A stretch of DNA of 41,413 bases, taken from assembly GCA_027365385.1 (NCBI GenBank), contig DAHXNN010000136.1, forward strand, positions 1 through 41,413, given 5' to 3'. Both the position numbers and the translations under genes were made by a program. The notes beneath the pieces are model-generated. The model did no database searches. It saw only the letters and a list, made by a program, of their open reading frames with translations, and was not told the origin of the DNA. This stretch comes from Acidimicrobiaceae bacterium (GTDB lineage Bacteria > Actinomycetota > Acidimicrobiia > Acidimicrobiales > Bog-793). Below, piece after piece: positions 5,586-41,413 of this stretch. Positions within the stretch are counted from its first letter, which is position 1; each line of letters opens with the position of its first letter.

Positions 5586-5661
5586 CTGCGTCCCGCGCTC
5601 GTCCCGTCGCTGACCGTTCCGGGCCGACCGTGTGGTCGGACCCCTGTCGCGACGGTAGCTC

Positions 5662-5745: not shown

Positions 5746-5800
5746 GAGCGCGACGCCCGGGCGCACGCGTCCGCGGGTGAGGGCTCGCAGCGCCCGCAGG

Positions 5801-19105: not shown

Positions 19106-21673
19106 TCAGCATGCTCGCAGCTTGTCAAGACAACACAACGCTGCGACATCGACCGCTGGCACCGCCCGGGAGAACAGGTAGCCTTGGCCGAGATCGCAAC
19201 CGAGCGCGCTCAAGCGTGCGAGCTGCTCCGGTGTCTCGATGCCCTCCGCGACGACGATCATGTCGAGATCGTGACCCAGGGAGACCATCGCGCCGAGAAG
19301 GGACTCTGCGTGGGCGGTCTCGGCTCGCGAGCTCACGAACGACTTGTCGATCTTGATGATATCTGGGCGGAGCCTGGCAAGATACGACAGCGACGAATAG
19401 CCGGTCCCGAAGTCGTCGAGCGCGATGGCTACCCCAAGGCGGTGCAGCTCCTCGATGGTGCTCGCTGCTCGCGCGACATCGACGAGCGCCGTGCTCTCGG
19501 TGATCTCGACCACCAGGCGGCCCGGAGCAAGGGGAGCCGTCGAGAGCACATCGTCGATCGACGCAAGAAGAGCGGAATCGTGGAACTGGTGAGCAGACAG
19601 GTTGACCGACACGTACGGGGCCACGCCATCGCCGACCGCCTTCTGCCACGATGCGGCCGCGCGACCGGCCTCGCGAAGCGCGAACTCGCCGAGCTCGGCG
19701 ATGAGGCCACTTCGCTCGGCCAGAGGGATGAAGACGTCGGGTGAGATCGGGCCGCGCGTCCTCTGGTGCCAGCGCATGAGTGCCTCGAAGCCGACGACGG
19801 TTCCACTCGCGAGCTGGACGAGCGGCTGGTAGTGCATCGAGAGCTCGTTCGACGACAGCGCCTGATGCAGCTCTTGGAGAAGAGCGAAGCGGACGGAGAC
19901 CTGCTCGCGCATCTCCGGGGTGAAGGTGGCGAACCCACCCTTGCCTTGGCGCTTGGCTTCGTAGAGTGCGGAATCGGCGTCCTGCAGCAACTCGGCCCAG
20001 TCCGTGCCGAGACGCTTTCGGACCACGACTCCCAGGCTCGCGTGCTGCTCGACGCGCCCACCTCCAAGATAGAAGGGCGCGGCCAGTGCGTCGAGCAGGC
20101 TTCTCGCCACGTCGCCGGCCTCGGCGGCGGATGCGAGTCCCTCCGCGAGATACAGGAACTCGTCCCCGCCGAGGCGGCACAACATGTCGCTCGCGCGCGC
20201 TGTCTTCGATAGGCGACGGGCAAGCTCTACGAGGAGTTGGTCGCCGACATTGTGACCGAGACTGTCGTTGACGGACTTGAAATCGTCGAGGTCGAGCAGC
20301 ATCACTGCGCTCCAGCCGTCGCGACCGTCGCTCACCGAGGACGCGCGCTCGAACCGCTCTTGGAACAGGGACCGGTTCGCGAGCCCGGTAAGTGGGTCGT
20401 GCAGAGCCTGGTGGGAGATCTGGGCAGCAAGCAGGCGCTCCTCGGTCACGTCCCGCACCGAGGCGACGAGGTACACGGGCGCGCCGCTCTCGTCCTTCAC
20501 GACGGCGGTGAGCAGGTTCGCGTCGACGACGTGGCCGTCGCTGTGGAGGTAGCGCTTGACGTAGCTGACGTGCTCGACCTCTCCGGAGACGAGGCGGCGG
20601 TTCATCTCCGCGGTGAGTGCCCGGTCCTCCGGGTGGGTGGCATCGACGAGGTCGCGCCCGAGCATGTCGGCCGCCGTGAGGCCGAGCATGGTGCAGTAGG
20701 AGCGGTTGACGTCGACCAACCGTCCGTCCAGGCTTGCGAGAGCCATGCCGGCGACATTGTTCTCGAAGGCCAGGCGGAAGCGCCTCTCCGCGTCGTCACG
20801 AGCGCGCTCGGCTTGCTCCAGGACGCTGTCGTCGCGGACCATGACGATCGTGTAAGGCGTGGTGTCCGTCGCGAGCGGAGCGAGGGCGATGTCGACAGGC
20901 ATCTCGGCGCCGTCCTGGCGCAGCAGTAGGAGTCCCGGTCGTGCCCCGTGTGGGCGAGTCACGGACGTGCCTCTTGTGCCGTTTCGCTGGGCGACGTGGT
21001 GCTCACGGAAGCCCGCGGGAACGAGCAGCTCGACGGCGCTACCGACGAGCTGCTCGCTCTGGTAGCCCGAGAGCATCTCGAGCTGCCCGTTCGCGTAGCG
21101 GATCGCACCGTCCGCGTCGACGAGAGCGATGCCATAGGGGAGGGCGTCGAACAGGGTGTGCCAGGAGAGGGAATGGCCCTCGATGCTGCCCATGATCCGT
21201 TCGCGCTCTGCCTCGACCATCCGGTGGCGCAGGGAGCGCTCATCCTCGAAGCGGTAGCCGAGAAGTACCGCGGTGACGAGCACCATCGACAAGACGCCCC
21301 ATGCGCCCCAGGCTTCGGTGGAGCTGTGACGGGCGAACAGCTCCTCGGGAGCGAGGAGGGCGATCCCACCGACCGCGGCGCCGAGCGATCCGACGAGCCC
21401 GAATACCGTGCCCGCGTAGACTGTGGGGACGAGCAGCAGCAAGGTCCACACGAAGCCCGGAACCGGGAACACGCCCGCGTCCTGGGCGAGGTCGGCGGCG
21501 AGGTGGACGAGAACGGCGATCACGACCATCGCTTGGACCATCCAGAATCGACGGTCGCCGAGAGGCGGGTGTGCCAGATTCGCGACCATCGAGCCGCGGA
21601 CGGGACGGGACGAGCCGTCGTCGTGCGCGCCGCTGGGCTTGTCGCTCTCTGCCGTCCCGTCGGATCTCGGCAC
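19106..21673 (-). CDS. Membrane-bound PAS-PAS-GGDEF-EAL c-di-GMP enzyme
   Basis: N-terminal TM helices; two PAS/PAC domains; HDPLTGLANR, DLDDFK.VND, RASD I-site with RLGGDEF; FEALMRW, EITES, DDFGTGYSSL, KIDKSFV, AEGIET, QGYLF. Confidence 0.94.
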   Translation of the reverse strand: MPRSDGTAESDKPSGAHDDGSSRPVRGSMVANLAHPPLGDRRFWMVQAMVVIAVLVHLAADLAQDAGVFPVPGFVWTLLLLVPTVYAGTVFGLVGSLGAAVGGIALLAPEELFARHSSTEAWGAWGVLSMVLVTAVLLGYRFEDERSLRHRMVEAERERIMGSIEGHSLSWHTLFDALPYGIALVDADGAIRYANGQLEMLSGYQSEQLVGSAVELLVPAGFREHHVAQRNGTRGTSVTRPHGARPGLLLLRQDGAEMPVDIALAPLATDTTPYTIVMVRDDSVLEQAERARDDAERRFRLAFENNVAGMALASLDGRLVDVNRSYCTMLGLTAADMLGRDLVDATHPEDRALTAEMNRRLVSGEVEHVSYVKRYLHSDGHVVDANLLTAVVKDESGAPVYLVASVRDVTEERLLAAQISHQALHDPLTGLANRSLFQERFERASSVSDGRDGWSAVMLLDLDDFKSVNDSLGHNVGDQLLVELARRLSKTARASDMLCRLGGDEFLYLAEGLASAAEAGDVARSLLDALAAPFYLGGGRVEQHASLGVVVRKRLGTDWAELLQDADSALYEAKRQGKGGFATFTPEMREQVSVRFALLQELHQALSSNELSMHYQPLVQLASGTVVGFEALMRWHQRTRGPISPDVFIPLAERSGLIAELGEFALREAGRAAASWQKAVGDGVAPYVSVNLSAHQFHDSALLASIDDVLSTAPLAPGRLVVEITESTALVDVARAASTIEELHRLGVAIALDDFGTGYSSLSYLARLRPDIIKIDKSFVSSRAETAHAESLLGAMVSLGHDLDMIVVAEGIETPEQLARLSALGCDLGQGYLFSRAVPAVDVAALCCLDKLRAC

Positions 21674-22040
21674 GTCTACTCTCGCCCCACGGACTCGCCT
21701 ACCAGCCTTGCTGTCGGATCGAGCCGGCAGATCGTCGAGTCGACGTCCGTGGGCTCGACGTCGAGGGGACCGCTTCCTTCGAACGGGGCCACCGGAGGAT
21801 CATTGCTACAGCCTACGGTTCGATCCACGGCGCGGTGAAGGAGAAATCCTGGGCATCCCGGCCGAGCGGCTCGGCAGTGCGAGGTAGGCGGAGAACTGGG
21901 CCAGGTTGCCGCGAATGCCATGTGATCAACCTTTATTGCTCAACCACACGACAAGTGGATCCGTAAGGCATGCGGCCACAGCGCATGTGGCGCGGGGCGG
22001 CATCGTGCCGTGCGGGCATGCTAGCGAGAGGGGTGGGGCC

Positions 22041-24593
22041 ATGTCGCGTGGGAGCAATGGCGGGGGTAGCGGGTCAGGTTACGCCGCATCGACCGCACGG
22101 CCGTTCGCGCTGCGCGAGCGGGACGTCGTGGCGGTACGCGGCGGTTCGAGCGCCACGCAAGGTATCGCCGCCGCTGCGTCCTATCCGCGAACCGACCCGA
22201 TCCCGCCGGAGCGCCCCACGGCCGCTGCCCCATCTCCGACCGGGGCCTTGGACGATGTCGCCGCCGACATCCCCTTCGACGTCCCCTTCGATGTCTCTGC
22301 CGAGCGGCGTCTCCGATCCACGCAGGCGAGCAGGCGGCCGATCGGGCCGGGACGAGCCATCCGCGACCTGAGCGTACGCAGAAGGCTGCTCGTCATCTTC
22401 CTCGCCCTTGCCCTGCTCTTCGCCGCCTGCATGGCCGTCTCGTTCTCCGCGATCTCCTCCGGCCGGTCCTCGACGGCCTCCGCCGACTCCTTCACGGCGA
22501 GCTATGCCACTGTCGATGCCGCCTACCAGGGCTGGACCATGGACGACTCGCAGACCAATGCCTACGTCGCCCTCGCTCTCTACGGCAACCCGTCCCCGAG
22601 CGTGCTCGCTGGCCAATGGCGACTGGTCGAGCAAGGTCACGCCACCGCGTTGTCCGAGCTGACGAAGCTCGCCACGCTCGACAGCGGACCTGGTTCGGCG
22701 TCGTTGCGGGCCCAGGTGGGTCGCGCGAAGGCAGATCTCGCCGCGTACAACGTCTTCACCAACGAGGTCCACAGGAGCGTCCTCGCGCACCATCTCGGCG
22801 AGGCGGCTCAGGTCGTGGACACGACGAACGGCGCGGTGTCGAGCGCGATGGCAGCTGCCTTTACGGGATTCGAGCGGGAGTTCAAGGCTCGGGCCTCTGC
22901 CCTCAAGTCGTCATCCCTCGCTTCGGCCGGTCAGAACCAGCTCCTTCTCGTCGTCTTCCTCGCCGTCGCTGTGCTCCTCGCTGTGCTCCTCGTCCGCTGG
23001 CTGACCGGCACGATCACCCGGCCGCTCGAGATCGTCGGCGAGACGCTGCGCCGTGTCGCACGTGGCGACCTTTCAGCCCGTGCCGCCGTCGAGACGCGAG
23101 ACGAGCTCGGCGAGGTCGCCGGCCTTCTCAACCAGGCGATCACGGCTCAGGCAGCCGCCCAAGAGGACCTTGCCGCACGAAGCGCCGAAGACGCCGAGGC
23201 GGCCGCCGACACGAGAGCGGCTGGAGAGGTCGTGGGTGTCGTGCAGGGCATGACGAGCACCGACGAGGCGGTCACCGGCATCCTCGAGGTGATGAAGCGG
23301 TCCTTCTCCTTCGCCCGGGGGACCTTCCTGGACGGCGCCGAGCACGGCACCGGGACAGGGCTCGTCGCGCGCGCATGGCAGAGTCGCGATGTCGTGCTCG
23401 TCGGTGACCTCGGCTCCGTCGTCGGCGACCCTCGAGCCGAGAGCGCTGCCCGCGACGGTGCCCGTACGGCGCTCGCCCTCCCGATGGTCGCCGATGGCGA
23501 GACCATCGGGGTCATCGAGCTGTATTCGAAGGAAAGGTACGGTAGTGCCGGGCGGCGTCTCGAGGTCTTCCGGAGCCTTGCGCAGTCGCTCTCGGCCGCG
23601 CTCGAGAGGATAGCGGCACGCGAGCGGGAGCATCTCGCCGAAGCGGAGCTGCGCGCAAAGGTCGAAGACATTCTCGTAGTCGTGAACGCAGCTGGCGACG
23701 GCGACCTGACTGTCGTCGTGCCCGTATCGGGAGACGATCCTGTGGGCCAGGTCGGCGAGAGCCTCGCTCGGTTCCTCGCCGATCTTCGGAGTCGCATCGC
23801 GGCGATAAGTGGGAACAGCCAGAGCCTCGCGTCGGCCGCCGAGCAGCTGGCGACGACGGCGGCGCAGATGTCTGTCGGCGCGGAGGAGACTGCCGCCCAG
23901 GCGAACGTCGTGTCCGACACGTCGGGAGTCGTGGCGGGCAACGTCGAGACTGTCGCTGCTGCGGCCGAGGAGCTCACTGCGTCGATCCGGGAGATCGCGA
24001 AGAACGCCGCTGACGCGTCGCGTGTGGCGACACTCGCTGCAGAGGTGGCGTCGACGACCAACGCGCAGGTCGCAAGGCTCGGAGAGTCGTCGGAGGAGAT
24101 CGGCAAGGTCGTCAAGGTCATCACCCAGATCGCGCAGCAGACGAATCTCCTGGCGCTCAACGCCACGATCGAGGCTGCGAGGGCGGGCGAAGCTGGCAAG
24201 GGCTTCGCTGTCGTCGCCAGCGAGGTGAAGGACCTCGCACGCGAGACGGCGATCGCGACCGAGGATATCGGTGCGAAGATCGGTGCGATCCAGGGTGACA
24301 CAGAGGGTGCCGTGGCGGCCATCGGCCAGATCGGCCACATCGTCGCTCAGATCAACGACCTCCAGGCCACGATCGCGTCGGCAGTAGAGGAGCAGACGGC
24401 GACCACGAACGAGATCGCTCGCTCCGTGTCGAGCGCTGCGCAGGGCGCCGCCGAGATCACGGGCAACATCAGCGGTGTCGCCGACGTCGCGCGGTCGACC
24501 TCGGCAGGTACGGCAGAGACCACCCGCTCTGCCGGCGAGCTCGCACGCATGGCCGCAGACCTCCAAGCTCTGGTCGGGCGCTTCGTGTTCTGA
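22041..24593 (+). CDS. Methyl-accepting chemotaxis protein (TM-sensor-TM-HAMP-GAF-HAMP-signalling domain)
   Basis: [37 protein letters not shown] signalling tip; HAMP ITRPL...GDLS...DELGE; GAF-like [16 protein letters not shown]. Start uncertain. Confidence 0.92.
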
Positions 24594-24818
24594 CGGTCCC
24601 GGTAGGGTGGGGCGCCTGTGACACCACGGGACGTGCACGACCCAGGCTGATCCGGCGGACGTCGAGCCGTCGCCGACGGAGGCGAAGCCGGCGAGCTCAG
24701 GTGCGCCGGACGCGTCGGCGGGCTGGGAGGACGACCCCGATCCCCTCTGCTCGCCGGTCCGCCGGTCCGCTGCGTTGGCCGGGACCATGATGCGACCTAT
24801 GCCAGGGTGCTCACGTCG

Positions 24819-24891
24819 TGGGGCCGGCAGGGATCGAACCTGCGACCCAGGGATTATGAGTCCCCTGCTCTGACCACTGAGCTACGGCCCC
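24819..24891 (-). tRNA. tRNA with CAT anticodon, most likely tRNA-Ile2 (lysidine type)
   Basis: Reverse complement GGGGCCGTAGCTCAGTGGTCAGAGCAGGGGACTCATAATCCCTGGGTCGCAGGTTCGATCCCTGCCGGCCCCA: 7-bp acceptor stem, CTCATAA anticodon loop, GTTCGA T-arm; CCA not encoded. Confidence 0.9.
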
Positions 24892-24910
24892 TCGAGGCAA
24901 TCCGGTAAAG

Positions 24911-24983
24911 CTCCGGGGGAGAGACTCGAACTCTCAACCCTGCGGTTAACAGCCGCATGCTCTGCCAATTGAGCTACCCCGGA
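24911..24983 (-). tRNA. tRNA-Asn (GTT)
   Basis: Reverse complement TCCGGGGTAGCTCAATTGGCAGAGCATGCGGCTGTTAACCGCAGGGTTGAGAGTTCGAGTCTCTCCCCCGGAG; TATCGT -10-like hexamer at 24993-24998. Confidence 0.95.
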
Positions 24984-25216
24984 ATAGCTCGAACGATAGC
25001 AGCGCCGTCACGGCCGGTCGGCATCGAGGCGGCCGAAGCAGCCGGGCTCGACGCGGCCTACCGGGCCGCCTGGGCTGCGGGTCGCCTACGGGCGCAGGGA
25101 CCCGGTCGCCCTGACGAGCCTCAAGCGCACGACTGCGCGAGCGTTAGGACAGGTAGTGCTGCCGTCTCGGGGGAGATCTCCCGGTCTCCGGCGGCAGGCG
25201 CGCGTCCGGAGGCGAC

Positions 25217-26431
25217 ATGACCATTGGGGTCCAGTGCGAGAGCTGCACGTGCCAGGAGCTGGCTCAGGGCGCCGCCGGGACCCGACTCCTCGTCGCGAGC
25301 AACGTCGCCCACTCGATTGCCACCGTGCGTCGCGCCTGCAGGCACGCGGGTGGGACGGTCACGACCACCGAGTCCGGCATGGTCGAGATCACCGCCGAGG
25401 ACGTCGCAGCGGTGCTCCACGCGATCGCCGGCGAGCTGACGAGCGTCGAGCGGGAGGAGGTCCGTGTCCTCAGCGTCGCGAACCCGCCGGGCACAGCAGC
25501 ACGAGCAGGTGGCTTCCACGGGCTGGGCGGCACCGGCGTGCTCGCGGGGGCACTCCGCGCCCCGACGCTCGCCCAGCTCGACGCGCGGGCCACGCATGGC
25601 GACCTCGCAGCGCTGCTCGCCGACGAGCTCGCTCGTTTCTACAGCGTCTACCAGCCCATCGTGCGCCTGGACGACGGGGCGATCGCGGGCCACGAGGCAC
25701 TGCTCAGAGCATCGAGCCCCTCGGGGCGGGTGATGCCGGACGAGATGTTCGCTGCGGCAGCAGAGGCGGGGTGGATCCATGTGCTCGACCGGGTCGGCCG
25801 CACGACGGCGCTCCGCGGCGCGCAGGGTTGGATCGGAGACGACCTCCTCTTCGTCAACTTCGTTCCGACGACGATCTACCGTCCCGAGGTCTGCCTCCGC
25901 ACGACCGAACGCGCGGCCATAGACTCCGGACTCCGTCTCGACCAGCTCGTCTTCGAGATCACCGAGAGCGAAGAGGTGCGCGACGTCGACCACTTGGCGC
26001 ACCTCTTCGCCTACTACAAGGCCAAGGGCTGCAAGGTCGCTCTCGACGACCTCGGCTCGGGATTCTCCTCGCTCAACCTGATGGTGCGCCTCGAGCCCGA
26101 CATCGTCAAGATCGACCGCGAGACGGTCCAGCGGCTTCCCGGCAAGGTCGCGACCGCGATAGTCGGAGCCATCGTCGACATCGGGCGCGCGGCGGGAACG
26201 GTGGTGCTCGCCGAGGGCATCGAGACGGCCGAGCAGGCGAGCGCCGCCAGGGATCTCGGGGTCGAGCTCGCTCAGGGCTGGTACTTCGGCCGGCCGGTGC
26301 TCCGCACGCAGCACGCTTCGGCACTCGCCGCGGACCGCAGGCCGTATTCCGCCGCGCCCAACGTGGCAGGGCTCCAGCGGGTGCACGGCGTCGACCCCGC
26401 TGTCGCCGCGCGACCGGCCACGCCAGGGTGA
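25217..26431 (+). CDS. Stand-alone EAL-domain c-di-GMP phosphodiesterase with an uncharacterised Cys-rich N-terminal domain
   Basis: YQPIV, HEALLR, FVNF.P, VFEITESE, ALDDLGSGFSSL, VKIDR, LAEGIET, QGWYFGRP; GGAGG RBS. Confidence 0.92.
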   Translation: MTIGVQCESCTCQELAQGAAGTRLLVASNVAHSIATVRRACRHAGGTVTTTESGMVEITAEDVAAVLHAIAGELTSVEREEVRVLSVANPPGTAARAGGFHGLGGTGVLAGALRAPTLAQLDARATHGDLAALLADELARFYSVYQPIVRLDDGAIAGHEALLRASSPSGRVMPDEMFAAAAEAGWIHVLDRVGRTTALRGAQGWIGDDLLFVNFVPTTIYRPEVCLRTTERAAIDSGLRLDQLVFEITESEEVRDVDHLAHLFAYYKAKGCKVALDDLGSGFSSLNLMVRLEPDIVKIDRETVQRLPGKVATAIVGAIVDIGRAAGTVVLAEGIETAEQASAARDLGVELAQGWYFGRPVLRTQHASALAADRRPYSAAPNVAGLQRVHGVDPAVAARPATPG

Positions 26432-35286: not shown

Positions 35287-36002
35287 GCGTCGACCCCGCC
35301 GTAGCGGCGGTCACGCCGCTGGAACTCCCGCACCGCCTCGAACAGGTGCTCACGGCGGAAGTCCGGCCACAGCACGTCGGTGAAGACGAGCTCGGAGTAC
35401 GCGAGCTCCCAGAGCAGGAAGTTCGAGATGCGGTACTCACCCGACGTCCGGATGACGAGATCCGGGTCTGGCATGTCGGGATAGTACAGACGCGAGCGGA
35501 TCGCCCGCTCGTCGATCTTCGACGCAGGCAGGCCGGCGTCGACGAGATCGCGCACCGCGTCGACGATCTCGGCGCGCCCTCCGTAGTTGAAGCAGATCGT
35601 GAGGGTCATCCGGCGGTTCGCCGCGGTGAGCTCGACGGCGTCGTCCATGTGCCGGACCAGGCGCCTCGGCACTCGCCAGTCGCGCCTGCCTGCGAAGCGG
35701 ACGCGTACGCCCTTCGCGTTGAGGTCGTCGCGGTTGCGGGTGAGGATGCCCTCGTTGAAGTGCATGAGATAGCGCACCTCGTCGGCGGGTCGCCGCCAGT
35801 TCTCCGTCGAGAAGGCGTACATCGACAGCCAGCGGATCCCGGCATCGAGTGCCCCGTCGATGACGTCGAGCATCGCCTCCTCGCCTGCCCCGTGGCCCTC
35901 GGTCCTCGGTAGGCCACGTGCCCGAGCCCAACGGCCGTTGCCGTCCATGACGCAGCCGACATGCACCGGCACGCGTGTCCCATCGATGCCCTCGACCGCC
36001 AC
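35283..36002 (-). CDS. uppS: cis-prenyltransferase (polyprenyl diphosphate synthase)
   Basis: HV..VMDGNGRWA, YAFSTENW.RP, NYGGR.EI, PDPDLVIRTSGE.RISNFLLW..AYSE, WPDF, R.RRYGG. Confidence 0.95.
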   Translation of the reverse strand: MAVEGIDGTRVPVHVGCVMDGNGRWARARGLPRTEGHGAGEEAMLDVIDGALDAGIRWLSMYAFSTENWRRPADEVRYLMHFNEGILTRNRDDLNAKGVRVRFAGRRDWRVPRRLVRHMDDAVELTAANRRMTLTICFNYGGRAEIVDAVRDLVDAGLPASKIDERAIRSRLYYPDMPDPDLVIRTSGEYRISNFLLWELAYSELVFTDVLWPDFRREHLFEAVREFQRRDRRYGGVDA

Positions 36003-36021
36003 GCAGGCGAAGTTAGCCGTC

Positions 36022-36693
36022 CTAGGGACAGTGCTCCCGGCAGGGTGGCCATGGGTCGGCACCGTGGATCTCCGCCCAGCGGCCGACGACGGCCTCTGCC
36101 TCGGCGATCCTGCCCGCGGCGACGAGCACCGGCAGCTCCCCGTCCAGCAGCTCCCGCCAGGGCAGCGTCGCGCTCGAGCGACCGCTCGAGCGCAGTGACT
36201 CCCTGACCTGGCCGAGCATCGCCGCGAGGACCTCCACCTCGGGACCCACGAGGGCAGCGACGCGGTCGCGCAGCCAGCTCGCGAGCGCTGGGCTCGTGCC
36301 CGCTGTCGAGACGGCGACCGAGACGGGACCTCGCCGGACCACCGCGGGCAGGATGAACGAGCAGCCGGGGATGTCGTCTGCGGCGTTGACGAGCACGCCG
36401 GAGCGCTCGCCGTCGGCGAACACCGCCCGGTCGACCTCGGGTCGGCCCGTCGCAGTCACGACGATCCTGTAGAGCGCTGCTTCGCCGGCCTCGTACCGGC
36501 GCCGCTCGACCGCGACGCCGAGGGCGTCGATCGCTTCGTCGACCCGCGGGGCCACGACCGTCACGTGCGCTCCGGCGGCGACAAGGCCCTCGACCTTGCG
36601 GAGCGCGACGCGGCCGCCTCCGACCACGAGGCACCGGTGGCCGGCGAGGAGGAGCGAGACGGGGTAGGTAGGGGCGGTGAACGGCACGAGCAA
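36022..36693 (-). CDS. Precorrin-2 dehydrogenase/sirohydrochlorin ferrochelatase (CysG N-terminal / SirC-Met8 type)
   Basis: YPV.L.L.G..CLVVGGG.VA.RK, VNAAD....CSF.LPA...RG...VAVST.G.SPALA; no methyltransferase domain. Confidence 0.9.
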   Translation of the reverse strand: MLVPFTAPTYPVSLLLAGHRCLVVGGGRVALRKVEGLVAAGAHVTVVAPRVDEAIDALGVAVERRRYEAGEAALYRIVVTATGRPEVDRAVFADGERSGVLVNAADDIPGCSFILPAVVRRGPVSVAVSTAGTSPALASWLRDRVAALVGPEVEVLAAMLGQVRESLRSSGRSSATLPWRELLDGELPVLVAAGRIAEAEAVVGRWAEIHGADPWPPCREHCP

Positions 36694-36740
36694 CGAAGTC
36701 TACGGCGTTCGGGCCCGAAACATGACTCGCCGGGTCGGGT

Positions 36741-36768
36741 TATAATTCCGATCTGTCAAGTCAGGTAT
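36741..36768. promoter_or_regulatory. TATAAT -10 box overlapped by an Rrf2 (IscR/CymR)-like imperfect palindrome
   Basis: TATAAT at 36741-36746; AATTCCGATC-TGTCA-AGTCAGGTAT at 36744-36768; AT-rich island between the divergent siroheme gene and cysH. Confidence 0.55.
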
Positions 36769-36821
36769 GAGCTCGAGCGGCCCGGGATCTCGGCTGCCGG
36801 CGGCGAGGAGCGGGAGCTAGC

Positions 36822-37538
36822 GTGAGCACGGTCGTGGAGAGTGCATCGGAGCTCGTGGGCGCGTCGGGCGGGCAAGACCCGGGTCTCGACCTCGCGGCCG
36901 AGCTCGACAACGTGCGGAGCGAGCTCGCCGGGGCGACAGCCACCGAGGTCGTCTCGTGGTCGGTCGTCCGGTTCGGACGAGGTGTCGTCCTCACGTCGTC
37001 CTTCCAGGACTGCGTCCTTCTCGACGTGGCGGTCCAGGTCGACCCGCGTATCCGGATCGTCTTCCTCGACACCGGCTACCACTTCCCGGAGACTCTCGAG
37101 TACCTGCACCTCGTGGAGGATCGTTACGGGCTCGACGTCGAGGTCGTCACGCCTGCCCTTCCGCTCGGCGAGCGCGCGTGTGGCACGCCGGGCTGCTGCC
37201 AGGCGCGCAAGGTCGAGCCGCTCAACGCCGTTCTCGCCGGTGCGCGAGCGTGGATGACGGGCGTGAAGAGGGTCGATACCCCCGAGCGCGCCGAAGCGCC
37301 CGTGGTGGCCTGGGATCCCGCCAAGAATGTCGTGAAGGTCAACCCCATCGTCGCCTGGACCGAGGACGACGTCGAGTCGTACGTCGTCGAGCACGGTCTC
37401 CCGCGCCACCCGTTGAATGCCGCCGGGTACTTGTCGATCGGCTGCGCGCCGACGACGCGCGCGGTCGCCGACGGGGAGGACCCACGCGCCGGGCGGTGGC
37501 CCGGCTCCGGCAAGACAGAGTGCGGACTGCATCTCTGA
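36822..37538 (+). CDS. cysH: APS/PAPS reductase (CysH family)
   Basis: SSFQD, FLDTGYHFPET, CC..RKVEPL, W.TG..R, K.NP...W, GY.SIGC.P.T, RAGRW...KTECGLH; GAGGAG upstream. Confidence 0.93.
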   Translation: MSTVVESASELVGASGGQDPGLDLAAELDNVRSELAGATATEVVSWSVVRFGRGVVLTSSFQDCVLLDVAVQVDPRIRIVFLDTGYHFPETLEYLHLVEDRYGLDVEVVTPALPLGERACGTPGCCQARKVEPLNAVLAGARAWMTGVKRVDTPERAEAPVVAWDPAKNVVKVNPIVAWTEDDVESYVVEHGLPRHPLNAAGYLSIGCAPTTRAVADGEDPRAGRWPGSGKTECGLHL

Positions 37539-37577
37539 GCGCGGCCCGACGCGAGATACGACAGGACCGTCCCAGAG

Positions 37578-39323
37578 ATGGAGTTCATAAGACCGTTCCG
37601 CCACGGCACCGAGCTGAGCCAGCAGGAGAGGTGGAAGCTCGAGCGGCATCCGCTCGACGTCGCCGAGGCGATCCGCGAGCGCTACTCGCGCCTCGGCCCC
37701 GATTCGATCGCGAAGGTCCCCGGCGAGGTCGAGCGCCTAAAGTGGGTCGGGCTCTACCCCCAGCGCCAAGGCGGCGACGCCTTCATGCTCCGGGTGAAGG
37801 TCCCAGGCGGGCGGCTCAGCGCGGCACAGGCCAGGCGCATCGGAGAGCTCGCGGACGAGCTCGCCCACGGCCCGGAGCCGCACCCGGTCTGGGGTGACCG
37901 GTACTGCGACATCACGACGCGCCAGACGGTGCAGCTGCACTGGCTCCACATCGGTGACATTCCGCAGGCATGGGACCGGCTCGCAGAGGTCGGGCTCACG
38001 ACGGTGCAGGCCTGCGGTGACTCGGCGCGTAACGTCTCGTGCTGCCCGGTCGCCGGGATCGACGCCGACGAGGCGTTCGACGCCTCGCCCGTGGCCCGGG
38101 CGATCTCGGAGCTCTTCACCGGCAACCGCGAGTACGCGAACTTGCCGCGCAAGTTCAAGATCAGCGTGACCGGTTGCCTCGACGACTGCGCCCGCGCGGA
38201 GATCAACGACGTCGCGATGTGGCCCGCCCGCCTGGACGACGGCACTCTCGGATTCAACCTTCTCGTCGGCGGTGGGCTCTCGGACGGGCCGCGCATGGCG
38301 AGCGACGTCGACGTCTTCGTCGAACCTCGCGACGCCCCGGAGTGCGCCCGGGCGATCGCTCAGCTCTATGGCGAGCTCGGCAACCGCGAGAACCGCGGGG
38401 TGAACCGCTTCCGCTATCTCGTCCAGGAGCTCGGACCCGAGCTGATCCGTGACGAGCTCGAGGCCAGGGCGACGTTCGAGCTGCGCCCCGCTGGCGAGGC
38501 GCTCACCCGCCGCTACCGCGGCGACCACGTCGGCGTGCACCGTCAGCGGGCAGCGAGCCCGGACGGCCCCCTGCGGTCCTATGTCGGCTGCTCGGTCACC
38601 GTCGGGCGGATCACGGGCGCAGATCTCGTCGAGGTGGCCCACCTCGCCGAGGCGTACGGCGATGCGACGGTACGCCTCACCGCGGATCAGAACCTGGTGC
38701 TCTCCGGTGTCCCGGACGACTGCCTCGACGAGCTGCTGGCGCACGAGGTGCTCGGGCGGTGCTCGCCGTTCCCGGGTCCGTTCACCCGTGGCGTCGTCGC
38801 TTGCACGGGGAACGAGTTTTGCCGCTTCGCGATCGTCGAGACCAAGGTCCGGGCGGCGGACTGGGCCCGGGAGATGGACGAGAGGTTCGCGGACGTGCTC
38901 GGTGGCCCCGAGGAGGAGGTCGTCCGCATGCACTTCTCCGGCTGCTCGGCCTCGTGCGCGCAGCCCCAGATAGCGGACATCGCGTTCCGGGGCGAGACGG
39001 CACACGTCGGCGAGTCGATCGTCGAGGCGGTCGATGTCGGTCTCGGAGGTGGTCTCGGGCCGGACGCGGTCTTCGCCGACTGGGTCGCAGGCGCGGTTCC
39101 GGTCGGGGACGTCCCGGACGCGATCGCTGCTGTCCTGCACAGGTACCTGGTCGAGAGGCGTGCCGGCGAGCCGTTCCGCAGCTTCGTCCGCCGTCTCGGC
39201 GCCGAGGATCTTGCACCTCAGCTCTCCACTGCTGGTGTGCCCGGTCGCCCCGTCCCGGACCGTGACGCGGGCGCGAGCAGCACGGGGACGGACGAACGGC
39301 CCACGACGAGAGGATCGACATGA
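37578..39323 (+). CDS. sir: Ferredoxin-type siroheme sulfite/nitrite reductase (Sir/NirA family)
   Basis: ERLKW.GLYPQR, FMLRVKVPGG, DITTRQ.VQLHW, ACGD..RNV, NLPRKFKISVTG, siroheme/[4Fe-4S] ligands CTGNEFC and SGCSASC. Sulfite specificity is inferred from the cysH context. Confidence 0.9.
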   Translation: MEFIRPFRHGTELSQQERWKLERHPLDVAEAIRERYSRLGPDSIAKVPGEVERLKWVGLYPQRQGGDAFMLRVKVPGGRLSAAQARRIGELADELAHGPEPHPVWGDRYCDITTRQTVQLHWLHIGDIPQAWDRLAEVGLTTVQACGDSARNVSCCPVAGIDADEAFDASPVARAISELFTGNREYANLPRKFKISVTGCLDDCARAEINDVAMWPARLDDGTLGFNLLVGGGLSDGPRMASDVDVFVEPRDAPECARAIAQLYGELGNRENRGVNRFRYLVQELGPELIRDELEARATFELRPAGEALTRRYRGDHVGVHRQRAASPDGPLRSYVGCSVTVGRITGADLVEVAHLAEAYGDATVRLTADQNLVLSGVPDDCLDELLAHEVLGRCSPFPGPFTRGVVACTGNEFCRFAIVETKVRAADWAREMDERFADVLGGPEEEVVRMHFSGCSASCAQPQIADIAFRGETAHVGESIVEAVDVGLGGGLGPDAVFADWVAGAVPVGDVPDAIAAVLHRYLVERRAGEPFRSFVRRLGAEDLAPQLSTAGVPGRPVPDRDAGASSTGTDERPTTRGST

Positions 39324-40621
39324 CCGATCTCGCGCTCCGCGACGGGGAGCGCTCGCCGGGTGGCGAGCGCACAGGGTACGACCAGCGACCTGCACTGCCC
39401 CCATTCCGGCTACGTGCCTCGATGAACGGGATCACGGAGGCGCCCGGCAAGGTCTGGTTCTTCGAGCTGGCGGCGGCAGTCATCGACGCCGACCGCTGCG
39501 TGCGCTGCGGCGCCTGTGTGGCCGCGTGCCCGTCCGACTCGATCGGCGTCGGCCACGACGACCTGCCCATACTCGTGAAGATGTGCACCGGCTGCTCGCT
39601 CTGCTGGGACTTCTGCCCGCGCGGGGGTCTGCGCTACGAGACGACCTGGCTTCCCGAATCGGAGCCGAGCGACTCGTCGTGGCGCATCACCGGTGCCGAT
39701 CCGGCGCCAGGGCTCGGCAAGGTCGTCGCCAGCTATGCAGCGCGAGTCCGCACGGGGAACCCGCACAGGGCTCCCGGCGCCCAGGACGGAGGCGTCGTCT
39801 CGGCCATCTTGCTGTCGGCTCTCGCGTCGGGCCAGATCGACGGCGCCTTGATCGCTCGTGTCGACCCGCAGACCCCCTGGCGTGGGGTCCCGTACGTCGC
39901 GACGACGAGCCAGGAGATCCTGAAGAGCGCGGGGACGTTCTACAACCAGACGATGGCGCTCGCGGCGCTCGACCTCGAACGGGCTGGCCTCGGCCCCGAG
40001 GCGAGGATCGCGGTGGTCGGGACGCCGTGCGAGATCGAGGGCATACGGGCGCTCCAGGCGCGGGCGTGGGGCAGGGGAGCATCGCGAGTCGACGCGGTCG
40101 CGCTCACGATCGCGCTCTTGTGCACGAAGAGCTTCGACTACCGCAAGCTGATGCTCGAGAGCCTGCGCGACGAGCGCGGCCTCGACCTCGGCCGTGTCGG
40201 CAAGGTCGACGTCGCGCACGGCCGGCTCCTCGTCGAGGACCTGGAGCACCGCGTCGTGGTCGACGAGCCCGTGAAGGCCTTCCACGGCGCCGCGCTGAAG
40301 GGCTGCGACGAGTGTGCCGACTTCCTCGGGCGGGCAGCCGACCTCGCGGTCGGAAGCGTCGGCAGTCCGGACGGTTGGTCGAGCGTGCTCGTCCGCACCC
40401 CCGCGGGCCTGGCAGCGTTCGAGCTCGCGGCACCGAGCCTCGAGCTCGCCGAGATCGCACGGCCCGAGGCGCTCGACAAGCTCGACCGCATCGACAAGAG
40501 CATCGCGACCGGGAGCCTGCGCCGAGCGCTCGAGCCGGACGGGGCGATGTTCGTCGACTTCGCGGACCATCTCGCCGCCTACGACGGCAGCGACCGGGCG
40601 CCGGTTTGGAAGGGATGGTGA
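39320..40621 (+). CDS. Coenzyme F420 hydrogenase/dehydrogenase beta-subunit (FrhB/FpoF) family protein with N-terminal 2x[4Fe-4S] ferredoxin domain
   Basis: CVRCGACVAACP and CTGCSLCWDFCP; AQDGGVVSAIL, VVGTPCEI, IALLCTKSF, GCDECADF, D.AVGSVGSPDGWSSVLVRT; ATGA overlap with sir. Confidence 0.9.
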   Translation: MTDLALRDGERSPGGERTGYDQRPALPPFRLRASMNGITEAPGKVWFFELAAAVIDADRCVRCGACVAACPSDSIGVGHDDLPILVKMCTGCSLCWDFCPRGGLRYETTWLPESEPSDSSWRITGADPAPGLGKVVASYAARVRTGNPHRAPGAQDGGVVSAILLSALASGQIDGALIARVDPQTPWRGVPYVATTSQEILKSAGTFYNQTMALAALDLERAGLGPEARIAVVGTPCEIEGIRALQARAWGRGASRVDAVALTIALLCTKSFDYRKLMLESLRDERGLDLGRVGKVDVAHGRLLVEDLEHRVVVDEPVKAFHGAALKGCDECADFLGRAADLAVGSVGSPDGWSSVLVRTPAGLAAFELAAPSLELAEIARPEALDKLDRIDKSIATGSLRRALEPDGAMFVDFADHLAAYDGSDRAPVWKGW

Positions 40622-40953
40622 GCGTCGTGGAACGCGAGCTGCGGGACCGGCTCCTCGGCCACCTCCCCGTGGATCCCGTGATCCTGCGCGCCCGGCTCCA
40701 CGCGATCGCGGCGAGCGACCCGGAGGCCGCACCGGTCGCGATCGCCGAAGCGCTCAGCGAGGAGCTGGCCGAGGCGTGGGGAGGCGAGCTCGGGTCAGAG
40801 CAGTCGTCGCAGCGCGTCATCGGCTCCGCGCTCGCTGCCGGTGCCCGTGAGACCTGGCTGTGGGTGATGGGCGAGAGGACCTGGCGTCACACCGCGGAGG
40901 GTCTCGCGGGCCGTGCGGCGCGGCGTGTCGAGCCGGCGGCGAGCAGCGGGTAA
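40615..40953 (+). CDS. Small hypothetical protein coupled to the FrhB-like gene
   Basis: Start ATG 40615 or GTG 40618 overlaps the upstream TGA; helical sequence with RETWLWVMGERTW..AEGLAGR. Confidence 0.7.
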   Translation: MVSVVERELRDRLLGHLPVDPVILRARLHAIAASDPEAAPVAIAEALSEELAEAWGGELGSEQSSQRVIGSALAAGARETWLWVMGERTWRHTAEGLAGRAARRVEPAASSG

Positions 40954-41023
40954 CGCTCCAGGAGCAGCTGCCATAGGTCCCGCGGCAGCTGTCATGGCAC
41001 AGCCCGGTCCTATGCTCCGCGCC

Positions 41024-41413
41024 GTGAGCGGACACGTGGAGATCCTTGCCTACGGCGACGCGACCTTCGCCGCGCTCGGCGAGGTGGTCGACTCGTGCCG
41101 GGCAGGTGATCCACTCGCGCCGGTCGTCGTGGTGGCCCCCAACGCGAGCGCGAGGTCGCAGCTTGGCGCCCGGCTCGCCCGCCGCGGCTCTGCGGTCGGC
41201 GGCCTGGCGGGCGTGCGCTTCGTGCTCGCCGCAGAGCTCGTACGTGCGCTCGGCGAGGAGAGCCTGCTCGCGCAAGGTCGCCGACCGCTCACGCGTGTCG
41301 CGTTGCTCGTCGCGGTGCGCGCGACGCTCGCCTCGCGGGTCGGGCTCCTGGCGCAGGTCGCCGACCACCGCTCGACGGCCGAGGAGCTCGCCGACCGCTA
41401 CGAGGAGCTGAGG
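41024..41413 (+). CDS. N-terminus of an AddB/RecC-like (PD-(D/E)XK nuclease family) protein, 3'-truncated by the window edge
   Basis: Not in the ORF track (no stop). Translation VSGHVEILAYG...GDPLAPVVVVAPNASARSQL..RLA.....LAGVRF....ELV..LG...L...GRRPL; TATGCT 7 nt upstream of GTG. Confidence 0.65.
   Translation, partial: MSGHVEILAYGDATFAALGEVVDSCRAGDPLAPVVVVAPNASARSQLGARLARRGSAVGGLAGVRFVLAAELVRALGEESLLAQGRRPLTRVALLVAVRATLASRVGLLAQVADHRSTAEELADRYEELR

What the first reader, a model, noticed from the sequence alone, without database searches (positions are those of the whole stretch)
36822..40953. Sulfate-assimilation operon pairing a sulfite reductase with an FrhB-family protein: candidate two-component F420H2-dependent sulfite reductase in a bacterium
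Seen: cysH, sir, a 2x[4Fe-4S]-FrhB gene and a small ORF are co-oriented; sir/frhB-like overlap as ATGA (39320-39323), and a siroheme-synthesis gene is divergent. No ferredoxin-NADP reductase or CysJ flavoprotein is in the cassette. Known: the Fsr of methanogens fuses an FpoF/FrhB-like F420H2 dehydrogenase module to a DsrAB-like sulfite reductase; characterised actinobacterial Sir enzymes are ferredoxin-dependent; many Actinobacteria make F420. Inference: the FrhB-like protein could oxidise F420H2 at FAD and pass electrons through its own ferredoxin domain to Sir. That would be a convergent, split Fsr-like system built on a Sir/NirA scaffold. I recall similar gene pairs in haloarchaea but cannot verify this or the novelty here.
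Basis: partly seen in the sequence, partly recalled or inferred. Interest (0 to 1): 0.85.

Follow-up and report, generated by a model that had tools for sequence, protein, structure and literature searches.

The report
Two-subunit F420-type assimilatory sulfite reductase operon
An Acidimicrobiales bacterium encodes a sulfite reductase next to a partner protein that probably feeds it electrons from the cofactor F420; this pairing was predicted in print in 2012 but, as far as I could find, has never been tested at the bench.

Summary
The order is cysH (36822-37538), sir (37578-39323), a 2x[4Fe-4S]+FrhB gene (39320-40621, ATGA overlap) and a conserved 111-aa ORF (40618-40953). A siroheme-synthesis gene lies divergent. 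The sir/frhB-like adjacency is conserved: 77 of 77 testable species-genome loci and 63 of 63 testable metagenome loci. It occurs in Acidimicrobiales, Rubrobacteraceae and haloarchaea. All Sir-linked FrhB-like proteins form one clade (support 1.0), separate from a second FrhB-like paralog that is common in the class. The nearest characterised relatives all use F420 (Ethanoperedens F420-reductase subunit, Fsr, FrhB); HCAR is remote. F420 biosynthesis genes sit beside the operon in two lineages: cofD-cofC-cofE in Rubrobacter-type loci and cofG/cofH in Haloferax-type loci. The window's genome has fbiC, cofD and cofE. A complex prediction passes its controls (0.66 against 0.30) and places the ferredoxin domain on Sir's siroheme-cluster loop. 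The idea is not new. Susanti & Mukhopadhyay (2012) proposed this two-subunit "aFsr" for haloarchaea, and their figure legends list Rubrobacter and Thermobaculum homologs. My searches found no biochemical test. F420 dependence therefore remains inferred. Verdict: a new bacterial member of a predicted kind.

The parts
36022..36693 (-). Divergent siroheme-synthesis gene (CysG N-terminal type: precorrin-2 dehydrogenase / sirohydrochlorin ferrochelatase). It supplies the Sir cofactor.
   Evidence: PF13241 92 bits and PF14824 35 bits. TIGR01470 127 bits against a cut-off of 62.3. A homolog lies upstream of the operon in most Acidimicrobiales loci.
36694..36821 (.). 128-nt divergent intergenic region between sirC-like and cysH. 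Presumed to hold the promoters; nothing was recognised in it.
   Evidence: Read. No sigma-70 consensus match. No Rfam family at E<=1 in 36500-37000.
36822..37538 (+). cysH, (P)APS reductase. It makes the sulfite that Sir consumes.
   Evidence: PF01507 132 bits. NF002537 238 bits against a cut-off of 154. Directly upstream of sir in 69 of 72 testable genome loci.
37578..39323 (+). sir: NirA/SirA-type siroheme-[4Fe-4S] reductase (aFsr-alpha type). Cluster cysteines C409, C415, C456 and C460 are invariant.
   Evidence: NIR_SIR 187 bits and NIR_SIR_ferr 117 bits. M. tuberculosis NirA 1zj8 262 bits and tobacco NiR 277 bits. Invariant columns in A3. 49% identical to the Haloferax mediterranei pHME505 partner gene.
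39320..40621 (+). FrhB-like electron-input subunit (aFsr-beta type). It has a conserved N-terminal arm (about residues 31-47) and a 2x[4Fe-4S] ferredoxin domain (C60/63/66/70 and C89/92/95/99). The FrhB core has the QDGG motif and cysteines C237/268/329/332.
   Evidence: Pfam. PDB 8riu_B E 3.3e-41, Fsr 7np8 8.3e-38, FrhB 6qii 2.2e-36, HCAR 5dqr 1.5e-4. Invariant columns. Clade support 1.0. Predicted interface with Sir.
40618..40953 (+). Conserved 111-aa ORF of unknown function, translationally coupled by a GTGA overlap. It has no cysteines. Motifs: LPxEPxxLR, ExWLWVMGERTW, GLAGRVxRR.
   Evidence: GC3 0.88 in frame, and alignment of 14 homologs. A homolog lies directly downstream in 44 of 78 genome loci and 39 of 72 metagenome loci. 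No Pfam or NCBIfam hit. No Atlas hit.

Best explanation
The cassette encodes sulfate assimilation with a two-subunit sulfite reductase. CysH makes sulfite. The FrhB-like subunit oxidises F420H2 at a bound FAD, which converts the two-electron hydride into single electrons. These pass through the FrhB-core [4Fe-4S] and the two [4Fe-4S] clusters of its N-terminal ferredoxin domain. That domain, together with a conserved N-terminal arm, docks on Sir next to the siroheme-coupled [4Fe-4S]. There, six electrons (three F420H2) reduce sulfite to sulfide.

Shown here: the gene set, the domain and cysteine content, the strictly conserved adjacency, orthology with the haloarchaeal 'aFsr' pair, F420 genes in the genomes and next to the operon in two lineages, and a predicted interface that passes its controls.

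Inferred: FAD binding, F420H2 as the donor, the direction of electron flow, and sulfite rather than nitrite as the main substrate.
For: (1) Architecture. The protein has Fer4 dicluster + FrhB_N + FrhB_C. All 8 ferredoxin cysteines and 4 core cysteines are invariant in 26 orthologs.

(2) Nearest characterised relatives all act on F420: the zeta F420-reductase subunit of Ca. Ethanoperedens CODH (8riu_B, E 3.3e-41, same Fd+FrhB layout over query residues 48-370), Fsr (8.3e-38) and FrhB (2.2e-36). FdhB scores 2.3e-8 and HCAR only 1.5e-4. The zeta subunit is anchored to its partner through its N-terminal ferredoxin domain (PMC11493965, passages).

(3) Synteny. sir is directly upstream in 77 of 77 and 63 of 63 testable loci. 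This holds in Acidimicrobiales, Rubrobacteraceae and haloarchaea. In an order sample of 91 genomes, all 8 other genomes with a Sir ortholog (>=59% identity) have the frhB-like gene downstream. By contrast, 5 of 5 examined loci of the distant Sir paralog (31-33% identity) lack it.

(4) Co-inheritance. The identities of Sir and FrhB-like to the window's proteins correlate (r=0.955, 130 loci). The loci are related, so this is descriptive only.

(5) One clade. All 36 Sir-linked FrhB-like sequences are monophyletic (support 1.0, stem 0.80), apart from the class-wide paralog.

(6) F420 link. The window's genome has fbiC (464.6 bits), cofD (270 bits) and cofE (238.5 bits), all above cut-off. cofD is above cut-off in G029, G155, G211 and G231. 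cofD and fbiC are above cut-off in 5 of 5 further pair-bearing genomes. Rubrobacter-type loci read cofD-(cofC)-cofE-cysH-sir-frhBL, co-oriented: 8 of 80 genome loci carry cofD or cofE, and 17 of 80 metagenome loci carry cofE. NCBIfam scores are above cut-off. Haloferax-type loci L174, L187 and L190 have cofG just upstream of sir. L164, L187 and L190 have cofH downstream.

(7) Complex prediction. The score is 0.66 against a best control of 0.30. That mark was reached by 58 of 80 solved complexes and 2 of 110 mismatched pairs. The runs agree in at least 88% of contacts, and partner pLDDT is at least 81. The interface is Sir 456-458, 416-419 and 499-506 against FrhB-like 31-46, 71-74 and 85-94. 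No FrhB/aSir complex appeared among the PDB hits, so a pass from memory seems unlikely.

(8) Pathway. CysD is present (435.8 bits). This is the only Sir-like gene found in the genome at E<=1e-40.
Against: - There are no biochemical data for any aFsr, here or in the papers found.
- F420-pocket residues could not be checked. The published motif marks are in figures and supplements that are not held.
- The AlphaFold model was poor (mean pLDDT 58.6; residues 1-131 below 50).
- cofD is present in 286 of 301 genomes of the class (257 above cut-off). Co-occurrence within the class is therefore uninformative.
- No F420-reducing enzyme was recognised in the window's genome, which is 92% complete. Fgd scored at best 51.5 bits against a cut-off of 420, and Fno gave no hit. 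The source of F420H2 is therefore unknown.
- The protein scores below every NCBIfam cut-off: frhB 148 against 331.5, FpoF 128 against 475.
- The FrhB family has members that do not use F420 (HCAR; from my knowledge). It also has many bacterial clusters of unknown cofactor.
- Sir's best NCBIfam and PDB matches are nitrite reductases.
- F420 genes are not adjacent to the operon in the window or in any Acidimicrobiales locus.
- The fused Sir-FrhB proteins in the database look like frameshift artefacts and give no Rosetta-stone support.
Confidence: 0.68

Rival explanations
1. The pair is a real two-subunit sulfite reductase, but the FrhB-like subunit takes electrons from something other than F420H2. 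Candidates are NAD(P)H at the flavin, or a soluble ferredoxin or flavodoxin, with the subunit acting as a dedicated wire.
For: The FrhB family includes ferredoxin-dependent members that do not use F420 (HCAR, a weak hit; its function is from my knowledge). Many FrhB-family clusters lie in bacterial phyla whose cofactor use is unknown. No Fgd or Fno was recognised in the window's genome. F420-pocket residues were not verified.
Against: The close characterised relatives all use F420, and HCAR is remote. The pair was found only in lineages that carry F420 genes. cofD-cofC-cofE or cofG/cofH sit next to the operon in two lineages. I know of no NAD(P)H-dependent FrhB-family member; this is recalled, not tested.
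Confidence: 0.17
2. The pair is mainly an F420H2-dependent nitrite reductase (nitrogen assimilation or nitrite detoxification) rather than a sulfite reductase.
For: Sir's best matches are nitrite reductases: NF007125 394 bits, below its cut-off of 594, and tobacco NiR 277 bits. The Haloferax mediterranei partner is annotated 'ferredoxin--nitrite reductase'. The Natronococcus pair lies beside nosZ/nosD. FsrII of ANME is a nitrite reductase (PMC9295563, abstract and passages). MtFsr prefers nitrite (PMC10229431, passages).
Against: cysH is directly upstream in 69 of 72 testable genome loci. M. tuberculosis 'NirA' (1zj8, 262 bits over residues 9-545) is named a sulfite reductase by the title of Schnell et al. 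2005, seen in the reference list of PMC11237513. It is the only Sir-like gene found in a genome that has CysD and CysH. Natronococcus-type partners are fused to a rhodanese domain, which is a sulfur-handling domain (PMC11237513 passage).
Confidence: 0.08
3. The FrhB-like gene is only a conserved neighbour with an unrelated role, and Sir uses a free ferredoxin as M. tuberculosis SirA does.
Against: Adjacency holds in 140 of 140 testable loci across two domains of life. There are start/stop overlaps. The Sir clade is specific to the pairing. The predicted interface places a ferredoxin-domain cluster motif on the Sir cluster loop.
Confidence: 0.04

Closest known systems
aFsr: putative F420H2-dependent assimilatory-type sulfite reductase of haloarchaea (aFsr-alpha = aSir, aFsr-beta = Fsr-N homolog); Susanti & Mukhopadhyay 2012, PMC3448663
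   Same: It has the same two gene products, the same order and the same adjacency. The window's Sir is 49% and its FrhB-like protein 48% identical to the Haloferax mediterranei pHME505 pair. All fall in one clade with support 1.0.
   Different: The host is a bacterium (Acidimicrobiales), whereas the paper's text assigns aFsr to haloarchaea and calls it an archaeal invention. However, Rubrobacter xylanophilus Rxyl_0964 and Thermobaculum terrenum appear in its figure legend and in that of PMC9295563. The bacterial operons add cysH and a small ORF. Haloarchaeal forms carry a YEEWC-type C-terminal tail, a roughly 170-aa N-terminal extension (Haloferax type), or a Sir-rhodanese fusion (Natronococcus type). 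aFsr itself is a prediction; I found no assay of it.
Fsr, the F420-dependent sulfite reductase of Methanococcales (PDB 7np8, 7npa)
   Same: It has an FrhB-type F420H2-oxidase module with ferredoxin-type clusters feeding a siroheme-[4Fe-4S] site (E 8.3e-38; PMC10229431 passages).
   Different: Fsr is a single polypeptide whose reductase half is Dsr-like. Here there are two genes, and the reductase is the two-repeat NirA/SirA type (dsrA/dsrB models score only 28-36 bits against 394 for NirA). The likeness in function would be convergent on the reductase side.
[quoted passage not shown] Ethanoperedens thermophilum (PDB 8riu_B, 8rja_E)
   Same: It is the best solved match (E 3.3e-41). It is a free-standing subunit with an N-terminal 2x[4Fe-4S] ferredoxin domain plus an FrhB core with [4Fe-4S] and FAD. 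It docks on its partner through the ferredoxin domain.
   Different: Its partners are CODH and Fwd, and electrons flow towards F420. Here the partner is Sir, and the flow would run from F420H2.
Ferredoxin-dependent SirA (NirA) of Mycobacterium tuberculosis (PDB 1zj8) and the sirA-cysH operon
   Same: It is a homologous siroheme protein (262 bits over residues 9-545) linked to cysH.
   Different: It has no FrhB-like partner. In the window's order, the Sir paralogs without a partner are only 31-43% identical to the window's Sir. Of 5 such loci examined, 2 show sir followed by cysH.
E. coli CysJI NADPH-sulfite reductase
   Same: The logic is the same: a flavoprotein subunit turns a hydride donor into single electrons for a siroheme hemoprotein (analogy drawn in PMC3448663).
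   Different: CysJ is not homologous to FrhB, and the donor is NADPH. CysI models score far below cut-off here (121 against 757 bits).

Membership tests
aFsr (two-subunit putative F420H2-dependent assimilatory sulfite reductase) | An assimilatory-type (NirA/SirA/CysI superfamily) siroheme-[4Fe-4S] subunit | tested here: met
   NIR_SIR and NIR_SIR_ferr, two stretches each. The CX5C...CX3C cysteines C409, C415, C456 and C460 are invariant. PDB hits are NiR and NirA.
aFsr (two-subunit putative F420H2-dependent assimilatory sulfite reductase) | A free-standing Fsr-N homolog: FrhB core plus two ferredoxin-type [4Fe-4S] motifs at the N-terminus | tested here: met
   Pfam domains. Two CxxCxxCxxxCP motifs and 4 core cysteines are invariant.
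aFsr (two-subunit putative F420H2-dependent assimilatory sulfite reductase) | The two genes are adjacent | tested here: met
   ATGA overlap. 77 of 77 and 63 of 63 testable loci.
aFsr (two-subunit putative F420H2-dependent assimilatory sulfite reductase) | Common descent with the haloarchaeal aFsr-beta genes | tested here: met
   tblastn finds 11 plasmid records, all Halobacteria. Annotated pairs are seen. Identity is 42-48%. Single clade with support 1.0.
aFsr (two-subunit putative F420H2-dependent assimilatory sulfite reductase) | F420H2-dependent sulfite reduction | not testable with these tools
   Only indirect evidence: F420 genes are present and adjacent in two lineages.
Fsr (fused F420-dependent sulfite reductase of methanogens) | One polypeptide carrying both halves | tested here: not met
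   There are two ORFs in different frames. The 8 longer 'fused' database proteins include 3 that I read. In these, the Sir C-terminus is replaced by Arg/Ala/Pro-rich out-of-frame-looking text.
Fsr (fused F420-dependent sulfite reductase of methanogens) | A Dsr-like reductase half | tested here: not met
   dsrB scores 35.9 bits and dsrA 27.8 bits, against NirA-type 394 bits.
FrhB (beta subunit of the F420-reducing [NiFe] hydrogenase) | Score above the TIGR03289 / PRK09325 cut-offs | tested here: not met
   148.1 bits against 331.5, and 167.4 against 269. The extra ferredoxin domain is absent from FrhB according to PMC3448663.
FpoF/FqoF (F420H2 dehydrogenase input subunit) | Score above the NF040616 cut-off | tested here: not met
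   128.2 bits against 475.
HCAR/BciB (ferredoxin-dependent FrhB-family chlorophyll reductases) | Full-length sequence similarity | tested here: not met
   5dqr_A scores E 1.5e-4 over query residues 151-246 only.
Classical ferredoxin-dependent SirA of Actinobacteria | Same orthologous group as the unpartnered Sir genes in related genomes | tested here: not met
   Identity is bimodal: at least 59% for partnered Sir and 31-43% for unpartnered Sir paralogs.

The most novel reading that the evidence does not exclude
F420H2 is the physiological reductant of sulfur assimilation in a large, mostly uncultured set of soil and freshwater Actinomycetota. That set comprises Acidimicrobiales (relatives in at least 567 species genomes) and Rubrobacteraceae. 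The enzyme pair is shared with haloarchaea through inter-domain transfer. In Rubrobacteraceae the F420 tail-synthesis genes cofD-cofC-cofE lie in the same co-oriented gene string as cysH-sir-frhB, so cofactor supply and sulfite reduction would be expressed together. The conserved 111-aa ORF would be a new accessory factor of this enzyme.
Probability: 0.5. Interest if true: 0.55.

Novelty: new member of a known kind. Interest (0 to 1): 0.45.

Why it matters
If confirmed, this would give F420 a central anabolic role in bacteria, namely sulfur assimilation. It would provide the first biochemical example of the aFsr class predicted in 2012. It would also show that FrhB-type modules plug into an assimilatory NirA/SirA scaffold as they plug into Dsr-like, CODH, Fwd, hydrogenase and Fpo partners. 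Cultured carriers make it directly testable: Rubrobacter xylanophilus according to the published figure legends, and Haloferax mediterranei.

First, the spread of the pair in Acidimicrobiales. Second, the placement of F420 biosynthesis genes next to the operon. Third, the predicted docking of the ferredoxin domain and an N-terminal arm on the Sir cluster loop.

Tried and rejected
**Rosetta-stone fusions.** A 'longer' search found 8 proteins of 780-1127 aa at E<=1e-30. Of these, 7 carry NIR_SIR and FrhB domains. In the 3 I read (P0273, P0274, P0276), the conserved Sir C-terminus is replaced by Arg/Ala/Pro-rich text just before the FrhB part. One also has an out-of-frame-looking patch inside Sir. 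Each has a single member on a single contig. I take them as frameshift or gene-calling artefacts and do not use them as support.

**Co-occurrence with F420 genes inside the class.** This is uninformative, because cofD is in 286 of 301 genomes.

**Structure of the FrhB-like protein.** The AlphaFold2 model from 26 sequences gave mean pLDDT 58.6. I did not send it to fold searches.

**Tyr-Cys pair of M. tuberculosis SirA.** I tried to map it onto the window's Sir. The 1zj8 alignment was never printed, because plant NiR entries filled the 5 slots. All I can say is that C146, C156 and Y60 are invariant in the partnered Sirs, and that tobacco NiR has other residues at the aligned C146 and C155-C156 positions. 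The mapping is not established.

**Taxa and names.**
- The Atlas search for P0137 gave only generic FrhB clusters.
- The Atlas search for the small ORF gave no hit.
- The whole-word search for 'aFsr' was swamped by Streptomyces AfsR (293 papers, 20 listed, 1 relevant).

**Operon signals.**
- No promoter-like site was found in 36000-41413. The one terminator-like match (+ strand, 36723-36737, in the sirC-cysH intergenic region) is no more than the shuffles give (mean 0.6).
- No Rfam family was found upstream of cysH.

**F420-reducing enzymes in the window's genome.**
- Fgd scored below cut-off.
- Fno gave no hit.
- sat gave no hit.

**Supplements are closed.** I could not see Figs S2-S4 of PMC3448663, or Fig 4 and its motif marks in PMC9295563. 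These would show how Rxyl_0964 and Tter were labelled and which residues are called the F420 motif.

**Unpublished genomes.**
- G350 is one of the 8 orthologs. Without it the count is 7 of 7.
- G212, G254 and G275 are inside the class tallies.

Full report
**What is there.** The window is contig C59 of a 2.39-Mb, 243-contig genome that is 92% complete. It has about 70% G+C. The best homologs of its proteins are labelled Acidimicrobiales or Acidimicrobiaceae.

On the + strand lie four genes:
- cysH, 36822-37538: PAPS_reduct; NF002537 238 bits against a cut-off of 154.
- sir, 37578-39323: NIR_SIR and NIR_SIR_ferr, two stretches each.
- A 433-aa gene, 39320-40621: Fer4 dicluster at residues 52-104, FrhB_FdhB_N at 144-217 and FrhB_FdhB_C at 229-376.
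- A 111-aa ORF, 40618-40953, with no family match.

These are supported. sir and the FrhB-like gene overlap as ATGA at 39320-39323, with GAGAGGA just upstream. The FrhB-like gene and the small ORF overlap as GTGA. The small ORF has the coding signature of this genome: GC3 is 0.88 in frame and 0.58-0.79 out of frame.

Divergent at 36022-36693 is a CysG N-terminal type siroheme-synthesis gene. Further upstream lie housekeeping genes: undecaprenyl-diphosphate synthase, RecO, a class II tRNA synthetase, DnaG, a sigma-70 factor and acetyl-CoA synthetase.

**The adjacency is conserved.** Of these, 567 encode a relative, and the best 80 were kept. By record title, most are Acidimicrobiales, Acidimicrobiaceae or 'Actinomycetes' MAGs. 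Eleven are Rubrobacter-type, and one is labelled Acidobacteriota.

| Feature | Genome loci | Metagenome loci |
|---|---|---|
| sir co-oriented, ending within -200 to +700 nt of the FrhB-like gene (loci with at least 600 nt upstream) | 77 of 77 | 63 of 63 |
| cysH just upstream of sir | 69 of 72 testable | 26 of 51 testable |
| Small-ORF homolog directly downstream | 44 of 78 testable | 39 of 72 testable |

The metagenome scan was seeded with the most distant orthologs. The single genome locus with no sir hit (L090) has only 213 nt upstream.

Sampling from the Sir side gives the same picture. Among 91 genomes of the window's order, 9 have a Sir ortholog (59-68% identity, including the window's own). 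All 8 others carry the FrhB-like gene directly downstream; this is 7 of 7 without the unpublished G350. About 29 genomes have only a distant Sir paralog (31-43% identity). In 5 of 5 such loci examined, no FrhB-like gene lies within 1.5 kb, and 2 of them show the classical sir-cysH order. The partnered Sir is therefore a clade of its own, and two alternative sulfite reductase systems exist in this order. The window's genome has only the partnered one at E<=1e-40.

**What the FrhB-like protein is.** It scores below the cut-offs of all NCBIfam models for FrhB and FpoF, so it belongs to none of those named families.

Against solved structures, the best match is chain B of 8riu (E 3.3e-41, query residues 48-370). 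This is the zeta subunit of the CO dehydrogenase of Ca. Ethanoperedens thermophilum. Next come Fsr (7np8, 8.3e-38) and FrhB (6qii, 2.2e-36). FdhB (2.3e-8) and the chlorophyll reductase HCAR (1.5e-4, about 95 residues only) are remote.

The zeta subunit has the same layout: a ferredoxin domain with two [4Fe-4S] clusters, then an FrhB-type domain with [4Fe-4S] and FAD. It is anchored to its partner through the ferredoxin domain and reduces F420 (PMC11493965, passages).

In 26 orthologs, all 8 cysteines of the two CxxCxxCxxxCP motifs are invariant. So are the 4 core cysteines (C237, C268, C329, C332), the QDGG motif and an N-terminal segment (R32, K44, W46, F47).

A class-wide search showed that the window's genome and about half of 301 sampled class genomes carry a second FrhB-like paralog. 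It is 30-36% identical to the Sir-linked protein and is not next to sir.

I built a FastTree of 76 sequences over 374 columns with midpoint rooting. It held 36 Sir-linked proteins, 13 paralogs and 27 unnamed cluster representatives, and no row was dropped.
- All Sir-linked proteins form one clade (support 1.0, stem 0.80).
- The Natronococcus-type haloarchaeal group is basal.
- The Haloferax-type group is sister to the bacteria (0.90).
- The bacteria are monophyletic (0.997).

This fits a transfer between haloarchaea and Actinomycetota. The direction was not tested.

**The link to F420.**
- The window's genome has fbiC (464.6 bits), cofD (270 bits) and cofE (238.5 bits), all above the curated cut-offs.
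- Within the class this says little, because cofD is found in 286 of 301 genomes.
- The four other pair-bearing genomes of that sample have cofD above cut-off.
- Five further carriers, four Rubrobacter-type and the 'Acidobacteriota' MAG, have both cofD and fbiC above cut-off.

More telling is gene order. In Rubrobacter-type loci the string is cofD-(cofC)-cofE-cysH-sir-frhB-like-small ORF, all co-oriented. Eight of 80 genome loci carry cofD or cofE in the fetched flank, that is 8 of the 8 Rubrobacter-type loci with enough upstream sequence. Seventeen of 80 metagenome loci carry cofE. NCBIfam confirms the names above cut-off, for example cofD 274.8 and cofE 277.6 bits in L058.

In Haloferax-type metagenome loci, cofG lies just upstream of sir (L174, L187, L190) and cofH lies downstream on the other strand (L164, L187, L190). 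In L190, cofG scores 463 bits and cofH 518 bits.

These are two lineages, so at most two independent events. No Acidimicrobiales locus, the window included, shows such clustering.

**Against the F420 reading.**
- I could not recognise an F420-reducing enzyme in the window's genome. Fgd scored at best 51.5 bits against a cut-off of 420, and Fno gave no hit.
- I could not check the F420 pocket.
- FrhB-family proteins that do not use F420 exist.

**Docking.** The complex job used paired 26-row alignments: Sir residues 1-545 and FrhB-like residues 30-433. It scored 0.66 (three runs: 0.65-0.67) against a best control of 0.30. That mark was reached by 58 of 80 solved complexes and 2 of 110 mismatched pairs. 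The runs agree in at least 88% of contacts, and partner pLDDT is at least 81.

The interface joins Sir 416-419, 456-458 (the loop with cluster cysteine C456), 472-488 and 499-506 to FrhB-like 31-46 (the conserved N-terminal arm), 71-74 and 85-94 (the second cluster motif of the ferredoxin domain). This is the geometry expected if the ferredoxin domain takes the place of free ferredoxin. It is a model's confidence, not a measurement. I saw no solved FrhB/aSir complex among the PDB hits.

**Sulfite or nitrite.** Sir's top matches are plant nitrite reductases, with M. tuberculosis NirA nearly equal. A title in a reference list names NirA a sulfite reductase. Sequence alone does not decide the substrate. 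Several points favour sulfite:
- cysH is a near-constant neighbour.
- The siroheme gene is adjacent.
- CysD is present in the genome.
- No other Sir was found.

Nitrite may well be a side substrate, as it is for Fsr.

**Comparison with what is known.** Susanti & Mukhopadhyay (2012, PMC3448663; abstract and passages read) proposed exactly this enzyme under the name aFsr. It comprises an aSir subunit (aFsr-alpha) and an Fsr-N homolog (aFsr-beta) encoded together in haloarchaea. They called it an archaeal invention. The legend of their supporting tree lists Rxyl_0964 of Rubrobacter xylanophilus and a Thermobaculum terrenum ORF among the Fsr-N homologs.

The Fig. 4 legend of Heryakusuma et al. (2022, PMC9295563; passages) lists aFsr-beta among the aligned protein groups and Rxyl, Tter and three haloarchaea among the organism abbreviations. 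Bacterial homologs were therefore already noticed, at the level of figure legends.

My searches found only these two papers using the term, and no assay of any aFsr. The library omits most subscription journals.

I confirmed annotated haloarchaeal pairs in two records. In Haloferax mediterranei pHME505, 'ferredoxin--nitrite reductase' overlaps an FrhB-family gene. In Natronococcus occultus plasmid 2, a Sir-rhodanese fusion precedes an FrhB-family gene beside nosZ. The window's proteins are 42-49% identical to them.

**Verdict.** It is a bacterial member of a kind that has been predicted, though never tested at the bench as far as I could find. It is not a new kind.

- the scale of its spread in Acidimicrobiales;
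- the partner-specific Sir clade;
- the placement of F420 biosynthesis genes next to the operon in two lineages;
- a conserved small ORF and a predicted docking mode.

Interest is moderate. A specialist in F420 or sulfur assimilation would not be surprised, but would find a clear enzyme to test in cultured organisms.

Noticed in passing
G000:C73:14477-15502 (-), = L038:7340-8983 (-); also L009-L033, L039: A second FrhB-like paralog (Fer4 + FrhB_N + FrhB_C) is 30-36% identical to the Sir-linked protein. About 150 of the 301 sampled class genomes carry it (155 of 301 matched the query at E<=1e-20, including the 5 with the Sir-linked ortholog). The copies are 52-69% identical to the window genome's own copy in 23 of the 26 loci compared and 38-39% in 3 (L013, L015, L024). 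It has no conserved partner gene; a histidine phosphatase lies downstream only in close relatives. Its role is unknown.
   Followed up: partly
window 40618-40953 (+): A conserved cysteine-free 111-aa ORF is coupled to the frhB-like gene, with motifs LPxEPxxLR, ExWLWVMGERTW and GLAGRVxRR. It is present in Acidimicrobiales and Rubrobacter-type loci but was not seen in the haloarchaeal loci. It has no Pfam, NCBIfam or Atlas match.
   Followed up: partly
L058:2141-8490; L119:2151-8491; L109, L111, L114, L116, L118, L096: In Rubrobacter-type genomes, cofD, a cofC remnant match and cofE lie directly upstream of cysH-sir-frhB-like, co-oriented with them. F420 tail synthesis and sulfite reduction may therefore be one transcription unit.
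   Followed up: partly
L200 (Natronococcus occultus plasmid 2): 2568-6206: The Sir partner is fused to a rhodanese-like domain (799 aa). The pair sits next to nosZ and nosD. Metagenome loci L120-L129 and L179 share this fused form.
   Followed up: partly
L201 (Haloferax mediterranei pHME505): 4509-6233: The Haloferax-type FrhB-like protein is 574 aa long, with about 170 extra N-terminal residues that the bacterial forms lack. This accounts for the 280-620 nt 'gap' seen between the tblastn hits in that group.
   Followed up: no
P0273-P0280 (database proteins of 780-1127 aa): Apparent Sir-FrhB (and one CysH-Sir-FrhB) fusion proteins occur, each as a single member on a single contig. The three I read look like frameshifted gene calls, not real fusions.
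   Followed up: partly
G000, whole genome: No Fgd above cut-off and no Fno hit were found, although fbiC, cofD and cofE are present. Four luciferase-like ORFs match the Fgd model weakly (25-51 bits).
   Followed up: no
L071 (record titled Acidobacteriota bacterium): Its FrhB-like gene nests inside the Acidimicrobiales clade in the tree, and the locus has the same cysH-sir-frhB order. The contig may be misbinned or mislabelled.
   Followed up: no
window 19106-26431: A PAS-GGDEF-EAL protein, an MCP-HAMP-GAF protein and an EAL protein lie in a row. These are ordinary signalling genes, unrelated to the finding.
   Followed up: no
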